From the IMG/VR virus record IMGVR_UViG_2923307698_000003: 48,241 nt of DNA. One strand, written 5' to 3'. A program made the position numbers. How positions within the stretch are numbered: position 1 is the first letter of the stretch; each line of letters opens with the position of its first letter. Positions 37,501 through 40,500 of this stretch are shown one piece after another. Origin of the DNA: a virus. Taxonomy: Duplodnaviria; Heunggongvirae; Uroviricota; Caudoviricetes.

Positions 37501-40500
37501 TGGCAACGACGAACGCATTCCGTCTGGCGTCACCGCCACTGGCACGCATCTGCCTTCACGGGGATTTGCAACGATTTGGCCGCCGCCTCAGCCTGTACGT
37601 GAACACGGCAGCGGAAGCCATCCGTGCCCTGTCGCTGCAGGTGCCGGGATTCCGCCGCCAGATGAACGAAGGCTGGTACCAGATACGTATTGCTGGTGAG
37701 GACACGGCACCGGAGGCGGTGTACGCCCGTCTTCACGAACAGCTGGGTGAGGGGGCGGTCATCCACATTGTGCCGCGACTGGCCGGGGCCGGAAAGGGTG
37801 GACTGCAGATTGTGCTGGGGGCGGCAGCCATCGTGGGCTCTTTCTTCACCGCCGGCGCAACGATGGCGTTATGGGGTTCAGCCCTGGCAGCCGGTGGTTT
37901 TTCTGCCACCACGATGCTGTTTTCACTGGGTGCCAGCATGATACTGGGCGGTGTGGCTCAGATGCTGGCCCCGAAGGCAAAGACGCCGGAGTACAAAAGT
38001 ACGGATAACGGTAAACAGAACACGTACTTTTCGTCGCTGGATAACATGATTGCCCAGGGGAACCCGATGCCGGTGCCTTACGGTGAAATGCTGGTTGGCT
38101 CCCGGCGAATCTCCCAGGACATCAGTACCCGTGATGAGGGCGGAGACGGGAAAGTGGTGGTTATCGGGCGGGGATGAAAATAAAAAAATCCCGCAGAGTT
38201 AGCGGAGCTGCGGGAGAGAACGATGAAGATTAACGTTATGGAGTTATTTTTCAGGCATCAAAAAAGTAACGCAGCGTCATTATTGCGGCTACAGGCAATT
38301 GCCGGAAATGTGAAGAGTTTCAGAAATTTTATTCCGTCATGACACAGGCACCCTCCGGGGTGCCTGTTGTTTTCTGGCATAAACAGATTCAGACATCAGA
38401 CAGGAGAGGGGGACAGAGTGGGTAAAGGTGGCGGTAAGGCACACACGCCTCGTGAGGCGAAGGATAATCTCAAATCCACGCAGATGATGAGCGTGATTGA
38501 TGCCATTGGTGAAGGGCCGATTGAAGGTCCGGTGAAGGGGCTGCAGAGTATCCTGGTGAACAAAACCCCGCTGACGGACACGGACGGTAATCCTGTGATA
38601 CATGGTGTGACAGCGGTCTGGCGCGCCGGGGAGCAGGAGCAGACACCACCGGAAGGCTTTGAGTCCTCCGGGGCGGAAACCGCACTGGGCGTGGAAGTGA
38701 CGAAGGCAAAGCCGGTGACGCGCACCATTACGTCCGCGAACATTGACCGCCTGCGGGTTACCTTCGGGGTGCAGTCACTGGTGGAGACCACCTCAAAGGG
38801 TGACCGTAACCCGGCATCCGTCCGCCTGCTGATTCAGTTACAGCGTAACGGTAACTGGGTGACGGAAAAGGATGTCACCATTAACGGCAAGACCACCTCG
38901 CAGTTTCTGGCGTCGGTGATTCTGGGTAATCTGCCTCCCCGTCCTTTTAACATCCGGATGGTCCGGGAGACAGCGGACAGCACCCCGGACCAGCTGCAGA
39001 ATAAGACGCTCTGGTCGTCATACACCGAAATCATCGATGTGAAACAGTGCTACCCGAACACGGCGATTGTGGGGCTGCAGGTGGATGCGGAGCAGTTTGG
39101 CGGTCAGCAGATGACGGTGAACTACCATATCCGCGGTCGCATCATCCAGGTACCGTCAAACTATGACCCGGAAAAACGCACGTACAGCGGCATCTGGGAC
39201 GGCAGCCTGAAACCGGCATACAGCAACAACCCGGCCTGGTGCCTGTGGGACATGCTGACTCACCCGCGCTACGGCATGGGAAAACGTCTGGGGGCGGCAG
39301 ACGTGGACAAATGGGCGCTGTATGCCATTGCGCAGTACTGCGACCAGACGGTCCCGGATGGTTTCGGGGGGACCGAGCCGCGGATGACCTTTAATGCGTA
39401 CCTGGCACAACAGCGTAAGGCGTGGGACGTTCTCAGTGATTTCTGCTCTGCGATGCGCTGTATGCCGGTATGGAACGGTCAGACGCTGACGTTCGTTCAG
39501 GACCGCCCGTCGGATGTGGTGTGGCCGTACACCAACTGCGATGTGGTGGTGGATGATAACGGCGTGGGGTTTCGCTACAGCTTCAGCGCCCTGAAGGACC
39601 GCCACACGGCGGTGGAGGTGAATTACACCGACCCGCAGAACGGCTGGCAGACCTCCACGGAACTGGTGGAAGACCCGGAAGCCATACTGCGCTACGGGCG
39701 CAACCTGCTGAAGATGGACGCGTTCGGTTGCACCAGTCGCGGTCAGGCCCACCGTGCCGGGCTGTGGGTGATAAAGACCGGACTGCTGGAAACGCAGACG
39801 GTGGATTTCACGCTCGGGTCACAGGGGCTGCGTCACACACCCGGTGACATTATTGAAATCTGTGATAACGACTATGCCGGGACCATGACCGGCGGACGTA
39901 TCCTGTCCATCGATGCCGCCAGCCGCACCCTGACACTGGACCGTGAGGTGACCCTGCCGGAGACAGGTGCCGCCACGGTGAACCTGATTAACGGCAGCGG
40001 TAAGCCGGTGAGCGTGGCCATCACTGCACACCCCGCGCCGGACCGGATACAGGTCAGCACCCTGCCTGATGGTGTGGAGACATACGGTGTATGGGGACTC
40101 TCCCTGCCGTCACTGCGTCGTCGCCTGTTCCGCTGTGTCTCCATCCGGGAAAACACGGACGGCACCTTTGCCATCACGGCGGTGCAGCACGTACCGGAAA
40201 AAGAAGCCATTGTGGATAACGGGGCCAGCTTTGAGCCGCAGTCAGGCACCCTGAACAGCGTCATCCCTCCGGCAGTGCAGCACCTGACGGTGGAGGTGAG
40301 CGCAGCTGACGGTCAGTATCTGGCACAGGCGAAATGGGACACGCCGAAGGTGGTGAAGGGCGTGAGCTTTATGCTTCGCCTGACCGTGGCCGCGGATGAC
40401 GGCAGTGAGCGGCTGGTCAGCACGGCCCGGACGACGGAAACCACATACCGCTTCACGCAACTGGCGCCGGGGAGCTACAGGCTGACAGTCCGGGCGGTAA

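What the first reader, a model, noticed from the sequence alone, without database searches (positions are those of the whole stretch)
38178..38417. A 240-bp hairpin-flanked insert between tail genes I and J
Lambda has only a short I-J gap as I recall; here the gap holds a minus-strand terminator-like hairpin (38190..38214 with flanking A/T run), a 39-aa ORF with RBS (38223..38342), and a 9-bp-stem terminator (38345..38375) just before J. A terminator upstream of J inside the tail operon is unexpected and, together with the J frameshift, suggests this tail-tip region has been remodelled.
Basis: partly seen in the sequence, partly recalled or inferred. Interest (0 to 1): 0.4.

Follow-up and report, generated by a model that had tools for sequence, protein, structure and literature searches.

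The report
Known prophage small RNA gene (PasB/EcOnc22)
The 240-bp spacer between tail genes I and J is not a remodelled junction: it is the standard spacer of pathogenic E. coli lambda-like prophages and carries, on the opposite strand, an already published Hfq-dependent small regulatory RNA gene (EcOnc22/23/24 in O157 Sakai, PasB in EPEC).

Summary
The I–J gap is 240 bp, against 60 bp in lambda. It contains a perfect 8-bp hairpin (38189-38215) with a T-run on the minus strand, a 39-codon ORF, and a 10-bp hairpin (38344-38367) with a U-tract.

The interpretation does not hold.
- The spacer differs by 1 nt from the I–J spacers of Sakai prophages Sp11, Sp14 and Sp15.
- It occurs in 801 of 5,426 complete E. 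coli genomes, with a median of 3 copies, including prophages with an intact J.
- Tree et al. 2014 mapped an Hfq-bound RNA of about 85 nt, EcOnc22/23/24, to these Sakai spacers. Their northern probe matches the window + strand at 38212-38246, so the RNA is minus-strand.
- Pearl Mizrahi et al. 2021 mapped the 83-nt PasB to the same position in EPEC E2348/69.

The "minus-strand terminator" is therefore this sRNA's terminator. Its promoter lies at about 38279-38324.

The 39-aa ORF is probably spurious: the start codon is lost in 24 of 45 variants and the stop positions are scattered. The hairpin before J also exists in lambda.

The J frameshift is one extra G (40507-40512) and is unrelated to the spacer.

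This is already known. Minor additions are the PasB = EcOnc22-24 link and an invariant CRP-like site upstream of the promoter.

The parts
37500..38177 (+). Tail assembly gene I (context); stop codon TGA at 38175-38177
   Evidence: ORF list. Homologous genes are annotated 'tail assembly protein' in Sakai, E2348/69 and Stx2a_WGPS6.
38182..38272 (-). EcOnc22/PasB-family Hfq-dependent sRNA, largest likely extent. The 3' end is at 38182, after 7 U. The 5' end is uncertain: 38272 if transcription starts 7 nt after the -10 hexamer (91 nt), or 38257 by homology with the mapped 5' end of EPEC PasB (76 nt).
   Evidence: The Tree 2014 northern probe for EcOnc22/23/24 equals the window + strand at 38212-38246, with 23 nt exact at its 5' end. 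The PasB probe matches the + strand at 38187-38209 with 3 mismatches and is exact in E2348/69. The spacer differs by 1 nt from Sakai Sp11/Sp14/Sp15. It is 82% identical to PasB over 71 nt. The fold has a z-score of -3.45.
38177..38215 (-). Intrinsic terminator of the sRNA: 8-bp stem (38189-38196 / 38208-38215), 11-nt loop, then U7-A-U4 on the minus strand
   Evidence: The stem is kept in 26 diverged variants (96.6% of cells paired) while the loop is hypervariable. Two pairs change on both sides in one lineage, CCCGUAAUA/UAUUACGGG.
38225..38233 (-). Most conserved single-stranded stretch of the RNA (UUAAUCUUC), just 5' of the terminator; candidate seed
   Evidence: Conserved in the alignment of 26 variants. 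It is unpaired or weakly paired in the folds. Zhu et al. 2026 place the proposed PasB seed just upstream of the terminator. This assignment is an inference.
38279..38284 (-). -10 hexamer of the sRNA promoter (AATAAT here; TATAAT in most relatives)
   Evidence: A -10-like hexamer sits at a fixed position in all 41 unique variants: TATAAT 21, AATAAT 11, TATCAT 5, GATAAT 2, AATAAC 2. Most variants also have TTCACA 16 nt upstream; the window has TTCCGG/TCCGGC there. The simple promoter scan did not flag the window copy.
38309..38324 (.). Invariant CRP-like palindrome TGTGA-N6-TCAGA upstream of the sRNA promoter
   Evidence: AAATGTGAnnnnnnTCAnA occurs once in the window against 0 expected. The half-sites are invariant in 40 of 41 variants. 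The N6 spacer varies, as does the 24-nt filler between the site and the -10, but the spacing is always exactly 24 nt. CRP binding is an inference.
38223..38342 (+).
   Evidence: The start codon is lost in 24 of 45 unique variants and only 6 keep an ATG plus 39-41 codons. There is no PHROG match (E = 0.26). The peptide is not hydrophobic: mean Kyte-Doolittle hydropathy (KD) 0.03, best 19-residue window 0.44.
38344..38377 (+). Plus-strand terminator-like hairpin (10-bp stem, UCCG loop) plus the U-tract UGUUUUCUGG, immediately upstream of the J ribosome-binding site. This module is shared with lambda.
   Evidence: It is kept in 14 variants (97.9% of cells paired), with one pair showing C-G, U-A and U-G. 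Lambda has AAACCGCC-UGCG-GGCGGUUU followed by UGUCAUUUAU at the equivalent place. Termination activity was not tested.
38403..38420 (+). J ribosome-binding site (GGAGAGGGGG, 38403-38412) and GTG start codon (38418-38420)
   Evidence: Sequence. The J start lies at the same position in RefSeq annotations of close relatives.

Best explanation
**What it is.** The spacer is made of two modules.

*Module 1 (about 38178-38335)* is a self-contained, minus-strand small-RNA gene. It is the EcOnc22/23/24 sRNA of E. coli O157 Sakai, a diverged member of the PasB family of EPEC.

- It has its own sigma-70-type promoter: a -10 hexamer AATAAT at 38284-38279, preceded by an invariant upstream palindrome.
- It is transcribed towards gene I, against the direction of the phage late operon.
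- It ends at the hairpin 38215-38189 plus a U-run.

**How it most likely works.** The RNA of about 76-91 nt is made in the lysogen while the surrounding tail genes are silent. Hfq binds and stabilises it. It acts in trans by base-pairing with host or prophage mRNAs through the conserved unpaired stretch UUAAUCUUC just 5' of the terminator.

*Module 2 (38336-38417)* is the ordinary lambda-type I–J junction: a plus-strand hairpin with a U-tract, followed by the J ribosome-binding site. During lytic growth the Q-modified polymerase should read through it. In the lysogen it would stop stray plus-strand transcription before J.

**Shown and inferred.**
- Shown here: sequence identity with the published loci, the strand, the terminator, the conservation pattern, and the non-conservation of the ORF.
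- Taken from the literature for the near-identical sequence: expression, size and Hfq dependence.
- Inferred: the exact 5' end, the seed, the targets, and the role of module 2.
For: **Identity with published sRNA loci**
- The spacer is 240/240 aligned and differs by 1 nt (38270) from the I–J spacers of Sakai Sp15, Sp14 and Sp11.
- Tree et al. 2014 Table S2 lists EcOnc22 (Sp15), EcOnc23 (Sp14) and EcOnc24 (Sp11) as Hfq-CRAC peaks on the chromosomal + strand. That strand is antisense to I–J. The northern band is about 85 nt and is destabilised in a delta-hfq strain.
- The three peaks start 21-23 nt from the J-side gap boundary when their old-version coordinates are set against current-version boundaries. 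A constant version offset explains this.
- Calibrating the offset with AgvB1 (+136 to +145) puts the peak at about window 38258-38189 on the minus strand.
- Their northern probe equals the window + strand at 38212-38246.
- PasB in E2348/69 lies in a 240-bp I–J gap, 1466343 to 1466261 on the minus strand. It is 83 nt, and its probe AATCCCGCAGTGATCGCGGAGCT is the hairpin-1 sequence.

**Expression data from the literature**
- In EPEC RNA-seq, PasB has BaseMean 482 and 1082 in the two conditions, while flanking I and J have 4.8 and 15.
- PasB falls by log2 -6.8 and -2.4 in delta-hfq.
- It has 37 RIL-seq interactions.

**Conservation**
- 69 of 79 evaluable IMG/VR loci with close J relatives carry both the promoter block and the terminator.
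- The terminator stem is kept while its loop is hypervariable, with two compensatory pairs.
- The -10 hexamer lies at a fixed distance from an invariant upstream element in 41 of 41 variants.

**Module 2 and J**
- Lambda shares only module 2.
- J is intact next to the same spacer in other prophages.
Against: - No expression data exist for the strain this window comes from.
- The window copy has a poor -35 (TTCCGG/TCCGGC where relatives have TTCACA). The simple promoter scan reported no sigma-70 site in 37500-39000.
- The published PasB 5' end lies 21 nt downstream of the consensus -10. So either the RNA is processed or a second, weaker -10 (TAnnnT) is used.
- The northern size of about 85 nt lies between the two predicted lengths, 76 and 91 nt.
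- Covariation support for the terminator is thin: 2 compensatory pairs, both from one lineage.
- The EcOnc22 probe as stored differs from the window by 1 substitution and 2 missing bases in its 3' third. This could be a PDF text-conversion error.
- The targets are unknown. The 2021 review lists them as 'unknown'.
- Rfam 15 has no family for this RNA.
Confidence: 0.9

Rival explanations
1. One reading: the insert is a small plus-strand protein-coding 'moron'. A 39-aa ORF with an RBS sits between hairpins, and its terminator attenuates J expression as part of a remodelled tail-tip region.
For: - The ORF exists and has a plausible GGGAGA RBS 6-11 nt upstream.
- A plus-strand terminator-like hairpin follows its stop codon.
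- Six unique variants keep an ATG and a 39-41-codon frame ending ...NVK(I/S)FRNFIPS.
- One phage record annotates a 32-aa hypothetical protein here.
Against: - The homologous start codon is ACG or ACA in 24 of 45 unique variants.
- Frames end after 6, 7, 12, 15-17, 21-24, 31-32, 39-41 or 97-98 codons. Indels in the A-run shift the frame.
- There is no PHROG match.
- The conserved features (terminator with T-run, fixed-spacing -10, upstream palindrome) all read on the other strand.
- Published probes detect the minus-strand RNA.
- The same spacer sits next to an intact J in other prophages.
Confidence: 0.04
2. A type I toxin-antitoxin pair: the plus-strand small ORF is a toxin and the overlapping minus-strand RNA is its antisense antitoxin.
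For: The architecture resembles one superficially: a small ORF fully overlapped by a convergent sRNA with its own promoter and terminator. The window holds a true hok/sok-type element elsewhere, the sok match at 12317-12492.
Against: - The peptide is not hydrophobic (mean KD 0.03, best 19-residue window 0.44), unlike type I toxins.
- The ORF start is lost in more than half of the variants while the RNA is kept.
- PasB has 37 trans partners in RIL-seq.
Confidence: 0.02
3. A purely cis-acting spacer: the two hairpins are processing or termination signals that set the I:J expression ratio on the late transcript, and any minus-strand RNA is a by-product.
For: - Hairpin 2 is shared with lambda and conserved. 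It sits right before the J RBS.
- The sRNA is perfectly complementary to the late mRNA between I and J. It could therefore direct cleavage there during induction. This is an inference.
Against: - Hairpin 1 has its T-run only on the minus strand.
- Module 1 has a promoter-like architecture conserved at fixed spacing.
- The RNA is abundant, Hfq-dependent and engaged with trans partners in lysogens, where I and J are nearly silent.
- No I or J partner appears in the stored part of the RIL-seq table.
- This rival may be an additional function of module 2 rather than an alternative to the main explanation.
Confidence: 0.1
4. A remnant of a miniature transposable element (MITE) or IS fragment inserted between I and J.
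For: It is extra DNA relative to lambda and is present in many copies per genome.
Against: - No terminal inverted repeats or flanking direct repeats bound the extra DNA. The only inverted repeats are the two local hairpins.
- Every copy whose flanks were read lies at an I–J junction. These include the 69 IMG/VR loci, although those were selected through their J gene.
- The multiple copies reflect multiple lambdoid prophages in one genome.
Confidence: 0.02

Closest known systems
EcOnc22 / EcOnc23 / EcOnc24 (Tree et al. 2014, Mol Cell 55:199; E. coli O157:H7 Sakai prophages Sp15, Sp14, Sp11)
   Same: - Same locus type: the 240-bp I–J spacer.
- Sequence identical except 1 nt (38270 C versus T).
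- Same strand.
- The northern probe falls inside the predicted RNA.
- Size is about 85 nt, it is bound by Hfq in CRAC, and it is destabilised without Hfq.
   Different: The window is not Sakai Sp15. Its J is broken at a different place: an extra G at 40507-40512, against a split after 1176 bp in Sp15 and Sp14. The single SNP lies near the 5' end of the long RNA form. The function and targets of EcOnc22 remain unknown.
PasB (Pearl Mizrahi et al. 2021, Sci Adv 7:eabi8228; Zhu, Shabalina & Storz 2026 bioRxiv; EPEC E2348/69 prophage PP6)
   Same: - Same position (240-bp I–J gap) and same antisense orientation.
- Same terminator stem and U-run, and the same conserved UUAAUCUUC-type stretch.
- Same upstream palindrome and the same spacing to the -10 hexamer.
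- Hfq-dependent.
- 82% identity over the 3' 71 nt.
   Different: - The terminator loop differs (3 mismatches in the 23-nt probe region).
- The window has a 6-nt deletion in the 5' half, CUCCAU instead of CUCCUU, and a weaker -35 and -10 (AATAAT versus TATAAT).
- Neither Table S6 of the 2021 paper nor the main text of the 2026 preprint (no occurrence of 'EcOnc') links PasB to EcOnc22-24. That link is made here from the sequences.
AgvB / AsxR anti-sRNAs and PasA/C/D–STnc100 (other EHEC/EPEC prophage sRNAs)
   Same: They are prophage-borne, Hfq-associated sRNA genes at fixed 'moron' positions of lambdoid prophages, each with its own promoter and intrinsic terminator. The same window carries AgvB (18214-18275, minus strand) and STnc100 (18020-18213).
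   Different: They differ in position (downstream of PR'/Q, near the lysis genes, not inside the tail operon), are unrelated in sequence, and have Rfam families. The I–J sRNA has no Rfam family.
Lambda I–J junction
   Same: Hairpin plus U-tract followed by the J ribosome-binding site; the TTTTAT...hairpin...RBS stretch aligns.
   Different: Lambda's gap is 60 bp and lacks the roughly 180-bp sRNA module.

Membership tests
EcOnc22-24 / PasB prophage sRNA family | Located in the spacer between tail genes I and J of a lambdoid prophage, antisense to the late operon | tested here: met
   Flanks are I (37500-38177) and J (from 38418). The published loci in Sakai Sp11/14/15 and E2348/69 PP6 are 240-bp I–J gaps with the RNA on the opposite strand.
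EcOnc22-24 / PasB prophage sRNA family | Sequence homology to the published RNAs and their northern probes | tested here: met
   1 nt difference in 240 from the Sakai spacers. The EcOnc22/23/24 probe maps to 38212-38246 on the + strand. The PasB probe maps to 38187-38209 on the + strand with 3 mismatches, and identity to PasB is 58/71.
EcOnc22-24 / PasB prophage sRNA family | 3' intrinsic terminator (stem-loop plus poly-U), the usual Hfq-binding module | tested here: met
   8-bp stem followed by U7. 96.6% of cells are paired across 26 variants and 2 pairs show compensatory change.
EcOnc22-24 / PasB prophage sRNA family | Own promoter giving a primary transcript of about 80-90 nt | tested here: inconclusive
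   A -10-like hexamer is at a fixed position in 41 of 41 variants. However, the window copy has a weak -35 and is not flagged by the consensus scan. The mapped PasB 5' end is 21 nt downstream of the hexamer. No TSS data were available.
EcOnc22-24 / PasB prophage sRNA family | Bound and stabilised by Hfq; base-pairs with target RNAs | not testable with these tools
   Literature only. CRAC peak and delta-hfq destabilisation are reported for the near-identical Sakai copies. For PasB, log2FC is -6.8 and -2.4 in delta-hfq and there are 37 RIL-seq interactions.
Any Rfam 15 RNA family | Score at or above a family's gathering threshold | tested here: not met
   No match in 38050-38550 at gathering threshold. 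At E <= 10 only sub-threshold noise appears, with a best score of 15.5 bits against 36.2 needed.
Rho-independent terminator (hairpin 2, plus strand) | GC-rich stem followed by a U-tract, conserved; termination in vivo | tested here: inconclusive
   The pattern is met: 10 bp with 7 GC pairs, followed by UGUUUUCUGG. It is conserved, with one covarying pair, but no better than the shuffle control (85/500). Activity is not testable here. Lambda's equivalent was not flagged by the simple scan, although it folds at -21 kcal/mol.
Type I toxin-antitoxin | Conserved small hydrophobic toxin ORF overlapped by the antisense RNA | tested here: not met
   The ORF start is lost in 24 of 45 variants. The peptide is hydrophilic, with a maximum 19-residue KD of 0.44.
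MITE / IS remnant | Terminal inverted repeats and target-site duplication; copies at unrelated sites | tested here: not met
   No TIRs or flanking direct repeats. Every copy whose flanks were read lies at an I–J junction.
CRP-dependent promoter | CRP consensus site (TGTGA-N6-TCACA) centred at -41.5 (class II) or -61.5 and similar positions (class I) | tested here: inconclusive
   The site AAATGTGA-AGAGTT-TCAGAAAT matches 13 of 16 non-spacer consensus positions and is invariant across variants. Its centre is -44.5 from TSS 38272 or about -59.5 from TSS 38257. Neither is canonical. The consensus and the position classes come from general knowledge, and binding was not tested.

The most novel reading that the evidence does not exclude
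The PasB/EcOnc22 family may be under catabolite (CRP-cAMP) control through the invariant TGTGA-N6-TCAGA site. That site is held exactly 24 nt from the -10 hexamer in every variant. This would tie expression of a multi-copy prophage sRNA to carbon source.

During induction the same RNA, being perfectly complementary to the late transcript between I and J, might also act in cis on tail-tip (J) expression.

Two related points have not been described in the sources read here:
- The family is much more diverse than the published PasB survey suggests. This search found 147 phage records and 2,770 genomic places, against 24 phage hits and 1,158 genomic hits in the survey.
- EcOnc22-24 and PasB are the same family.
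Probability: 0.25. Interest if true: 0.35.

Novelty: already known. Interest (0 to 1): 0.15.

Why it matters
For annotation, this spacer should be labelled as an sRNA gene, EcOnc22/PasB family, on the strand opposite the tail genes. It should not be labelled as a hypothetical small protein or as damage to the tail operon. RefSeq and GenBank records list nothing under it, and Rfam has no model.

Biologically it is one more case of lambdoid prophages carrying Hfq-dependent regulators at fixed positions. EHEC strains hold several copies: the median is 3 per positive genome, with up to 9.

Two small, testable additions come from this work:
- EcOnc22-24 and PasB belong to one family.
- The promoter has an invariant CRP-like operator. 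That could explain why PasB is higher in LB than in DMEM.

None of this changes current understanding.

Tried and rejected
- **Rfam.** A whole-window search at gathering threshold and a local search at E <= 10 found nothing for the spacer.
- **PHROGs.** Neither small ORF, on either strand, gave a match.
- **Genome contigs pattern scan** for the conserved promoter block. It gave only Escherichia albertii plus three tiny contigs in unrelated genera, which are probably contamination. The element is effectively restricted to Escherichia, and this scan added no diversity.
- **Placing the CRAC peak from Table S2 coordinates.** Those coordinates are for the older Sakai record, so a direct reading would have put the peak over hairpin 2. 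I calibrated the offset with the AgvB1, EcOnc42 and EcOnc06 probes. It is roughly +136 to +145 at AgvB1. The other two probes only bound it loosely. The probe sequence, not the coordinates, is the firm evidence.
- **Listing PasB's RIL-seq partners.** The stored supplement shows only the first passages, so the targets stayed out of reach.
- **Consensus promoter scan on the window copy.** It found no site. The promoter model rests on comparative data.
- **Simple terminator scan on the lambda gap.** It did not flag the lambda hairpin. Folding shows it.
- **Stx2a_WGPS6 J as a reference for the frameshift.** Its C-terminal half is too diverged, 57-76% identity. The frameshift was located from the two reading frames instead.
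- **Explanations considered and rejected:** protein-coding moron, type I toxin-antitoxin, and MITE (see the rival explanations).
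Full report
**1. What is in the sequence**

Gene I ends at 38177 (TGA). J begins with GTG at 38418, behind GGAGAGGGGG. The gap is therefore 38178-38417, 240 bp. Lambda's I–J gap is 60 bp.

The gap holds two perfect inverted repeats and no other.
- Hairpin 1: TCCCGCAG/CTGCGGGA at 38189-38196 and 38208-38215.
- Hairpin 2: ACAGGCACCC/GGGTGCCTGT at 38344-38353 and 38358-38367.

Hairpin 1 has its T-run only on the minus strand. Hairpin 2 has a U-tract, UGUUUUCUGG, on the plus strand. The 39-codon ORF at 38223-38342 exists.

**2. The spacer is standard, not a local remodelling**

- The 240 bp are 99.6-100% identical in VT1-Sakai, CP-1639, Stx2a_WGPS6 and many O157, O103 and O145 chromosomes.
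- Related versions occur in 147 phage records.
- They occur in 801 of 5,426 complete E. coli genomes, at 2,770 places, with a median of 3 per positive genome.
- A few are on E. coli plasmid or phage-plasmid records.
- Outside Escherichia, a scan of one genome per species found only E. albertii and three tiny, probably contaminant, contigs.
- Of 79 evaluable IMG/VR loci with a close J relative, 69 carry the element.

J is intact next to the same spacer in Stx2a_WGPS6 (3,495 bp) and in Sakai Sp11 (3,480 bp). It is also intact next to an 81-82%-identical spacer in phage PhiR12_1.

**3. What it is**

Tree et al. 2014 (PMC4104026) list EcOnc22 (Sp15), EcOnc23 (Sp14) and EcOnc24 (Sp11) in Table S2. 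They are homologous Hfq-CRAC peaks on the chromosomal + strand, with a northern band of about 85 nt that is destabilised in delta-hfq.

In the current Sakai record, the I–J gaps of Sp15, Sp14 and Sp11 are each 240 bp, with I and J on the - strand. All three spacers are identical to one another. They differ from the window at a single base, 38270.

The paper's northern probe for EcOnc22/23/24 equals the window's + strand at 38212-38246. The first 23 nt are exact. The stored text of the 3' third has one substitution and two missing bases, which could be a PDF text-conversion error. A probe with the + strand sequence detects a minus-strand RNA.

The Table S2 coordinates belong to the older Sakai record. 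The three peaks begin 21-23 nt from the J-side gap boundary of the current record, so one constant offset applies to all three. Calibration with the AgvB1 probe gives about +136 to +145. That places the peak at roughly window 38258-38189 on the minus strand. This step is an inference. The probe is the firm evidence.

Pearl Mizrahi et al. 2021 (PMC8550237, Table S6) independently map PasB in EPEC E2348/69.
- It runs from 1466343 to 1466261 on the minus strand and is 83 nt.
- It lies between E2348C_1436 (I) and E2348C_1437 (J).
- Its probe is AATCCCGCAGTGATCGCGGAGCT.
- That I–J gap is also 240 bp. The probe is the + strand hairpin-1 sequence there, and it matches the window at 38187-38209 with 3 loop mismatches.
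- PasB and the window RNA are 82% identical over the 3' 71 nt.

The EPEC expression data show an autonomous unit inside a silent operon.
- PasB has BaseMean 482 and 1082, while I and J have 4.8 and 15.
- Without Hfq it falls by log2 -6.8 and -2.4.
- It has 37 RIL-seq interactions.
- It is higher in the non-activating condition.

Table S6 notes EHEC homologues for PasA and PasD but none for PasB. The main text of the 2026 Zhu/Shabalina/Storz preprint never mentions EcOnc. The equivalence of PasB and EcOnc22-24 is drawn here from the sequences.

**4. Anatomy from comparison of 41-47 unique spacer variants**

On the RNA-sense (minus) strand, every variant reads as follows:
- an A/T-rich stretch;
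- TCTGA-N6-TCACA-TTT;
- exactly 24 nt of filler, in five unrelated versions;
- a -10-like hexamer (TATAAT 21, AATAAT 11, TATCAT 5, GATAAT 2, AATAAC 2);
- a conserved CTGCGTTA and a U-run;
- a variable body containing CUCC(U/A)U;
- the best-conserved stretch, UUAAUCUUC;
- the terminator.

The terminator stem is almost invariant, while its loop exists in at least seven versions of 10 to 16 nt. One lineage has CCCGUAAUA/UAUUACGGG, which gives two compensatory pairs. Across the variants 96.6% of cells are paired, against 25-64% when the partner is slid. That is modest covariation but consistent with the structure.

Most variants have TTCACA 16 nt upstream of TATAAT, which is a near-consensus promoter. 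The window and Sakai type has TTCCGG/TCCGGC and AATAAT, and the consensus scan does not flag it.

The 5' end is not settled.
- A start 7 nt after the hexamer, at 38272, gives 91 nt.
- The position homologous to the mapped PasB 5' end, 38257, gives 76 nt.
- The Sakai northern band is about 85 nt.
- Either the primary transcript is trimmed at the U-run, or a weaker TAnnnT -10 further downstream is used.

**5. The ORF**

At the homologous start position, 21 unique variants have ATG and 24 have ACG or ACA. Reading frames from that codon end after 6 to 98 codons. Only six variants combine ATG with a 39-41-codon frame. There is no PHROG match and no hydrophobic segment. I read it as the shadow of the sRNA gene on the other strand. 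This also removes the type I toxin-antitoxin idea.

**6. Hairpin 2**

The alignment with lambda shows that lambda's 60-bp gap corresponds to the right-hand end of this spacer: TTTTAT, a hairpin, a U-tract and the J ribosome-binding site. Lambda's hairpin, AAACCGCC-UGCG-GGCGGUUU, folds well. The extra DNA relative to lambda is therefore the sRNA module, about 38178-38335. A hairpin before J is the ancestral state.

Among 14 variants the stem is kept (97.9% paired). One pair is seen as C-G, U-A and U-G. This is no better than the shuffle control.

28 of the 80 IMG/VR loci have a 338-343-bp spacer. In these the sRNA module is retained but hairpin 2 is replaced by a different stretch of about 205 bp with its own hairpin. 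The two modules therefore recombine independently.

The late operon is transcribed by Q-modified, terminator-resistant polymerase. That is established lambda biology and was not tested here. A terminator at this position is therefore no obstacle to J expression. My inference is that it blocks stray plus-strand transcription in the lysogen.

**7. The J frameshift**

The two J frames overlap at 40501-40577. The sequence AATGCGTGGGGGGCAG has six Gs where five would give [11 protein letters not shown].

A 141-nt query across this site matches 4,472 of 5,426 complete genomes, always with a 1-nt gap (best 99.3%). The extra G is therefore private to this sequence or a homopolymer sequencing error.

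Sakai Sp15 and Sp14 have J split at a different place, after 1,176 bp. The frameshift has no connection with the spacer.

**8. Mechanism and comparison with known systems**

Best explanation, confidence 0.9: this is a prophage-borne, Hfq-dependent, trans-acting sRNA gene of the EcOnc22-24/PasB family. It is inserted as a non-coding "moron", antisense in the tail operon, next to an ordinary lambda-type I–J junction.

It works like other Hfq sRNAs: a 3' terminator with poly-U as the Hfq module, and a single-stranded conserved seed just upstream of it. Zhu et al. propose the same seed position.

The targets are not known. The 2021 review lists them as unknown, and I could not extract the RIL-seq partner list.

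**9. Things that may be new but are minor**

- The PasB = EcOnc22-24 link.
- A family diversity well beyond the published survey. That survey found 24 phage hits and 1,158 genomic hits with "only a few nucleotide differences". Here there are 147 phage records and 2,770 places.
- The invariant CRP-like site, AAATGTGA-N6-TCAGA, which is unique in the window with 0 expected. Its centre is -44.5 or about -59.5 depending on the start site. Neither is canonical, so this remains a hypothesis.

**Verdict**

The finding is real as a sequence feature. It is already explained by published work, and its interest is low.

Noticed in passing
window 38309-38324 (with flanks 38306-38327): An invariant CRP-like palindrome, AAATGTGA-AGAGTT-TCAGAAAT, lies upstream of the sRNA promoter. 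The half-sites are conserved in 40 of 41 variants. The spacing to the -10 hexamer is always 24 nt, although the filler sequence has five unrelated versions. Published data show PasB is higher in LB than in DMEM. I did not find CRP control described in the papers I read.
   Followed up: partly
window 40507-40512: The J frameshift is one extra G in a G-run (six Gs, five expected). None of 5,426 complete E. coli genomes matches the surrounding 141 nt without a 1-nt gap. It is therefore a private mutation or a homopolymer sequencing error. Sakai Sp15 and Sp14 J are split at a different site.
   Followed up: yes
window 38182-38199 versus 38260-38277: An imperfect direct repeat (78%). On the RNA strand, the 5' segment of the long transcript form (GCUGCGUUACUUUUUU) mimics the terminator's 3' arm plus U-run (CUGCGGGAUUUUUUU). 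It could pair with the terminator's 5' arm. In the one lineage with a changed terminator stem (L040, L042) the 5' segment is also changed in a partly matching way. The meaning is unknown.
   Followed up: partly
IMG/VR loci such as L004, L015, L028 (spacers of 338-343 bp): A second spacer type keeps the sRNA module but replaces the hairpin-2 module with about 205 bp. That stretch contains a different hairpin flanked by an A-run upstream and a T-rich stretch downstream, AAAACCCCGGTATCTGCTGATACCGGGGTTTCTCTTT. The content of this stretch was not examined.
   Followed up: no
window 18020-18275, 12317-12492, 4912-4963, 17018-17247: Other known RNA genes lie in the same prophage. STnc100 (+) abuts AgvB (-) as a convergent pair. 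There is also a sok antitoxin RNA, DicF, and two tRNAs. All score above the Rfam gathering thresholds.
   Followed up: no
L087, L088, L090 (Asaia platycodi, Parendozoicomonas haliclonae, Streptomyces flavalbus assemblies): Tiny contigs (460-3,408 bp) in unrelated genera carry the exact E. coli prophage promoter block. They are most likely contamination of those assemblies with E. coli or phage DNA.
   Followed up: no
window 42621-43826: The ORF downstream of lom encodes a long run of collagen-like Gly-X-Y repeats (GPPGPKGEQGPAGPQGPKGDKGERGD...), as in side tail fibre proteins of EHEC lambdoid prophages.
   Followed up: no
L013, L014, L019, L020, L031, L035, L041, L053, L061: Nine of 80 loci have a J N-terminus 96-99% identical to the window's but lack the sRNA module altogether. 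The sequence upstream of J is different. What replaces it was not examined.
   Followed up: no
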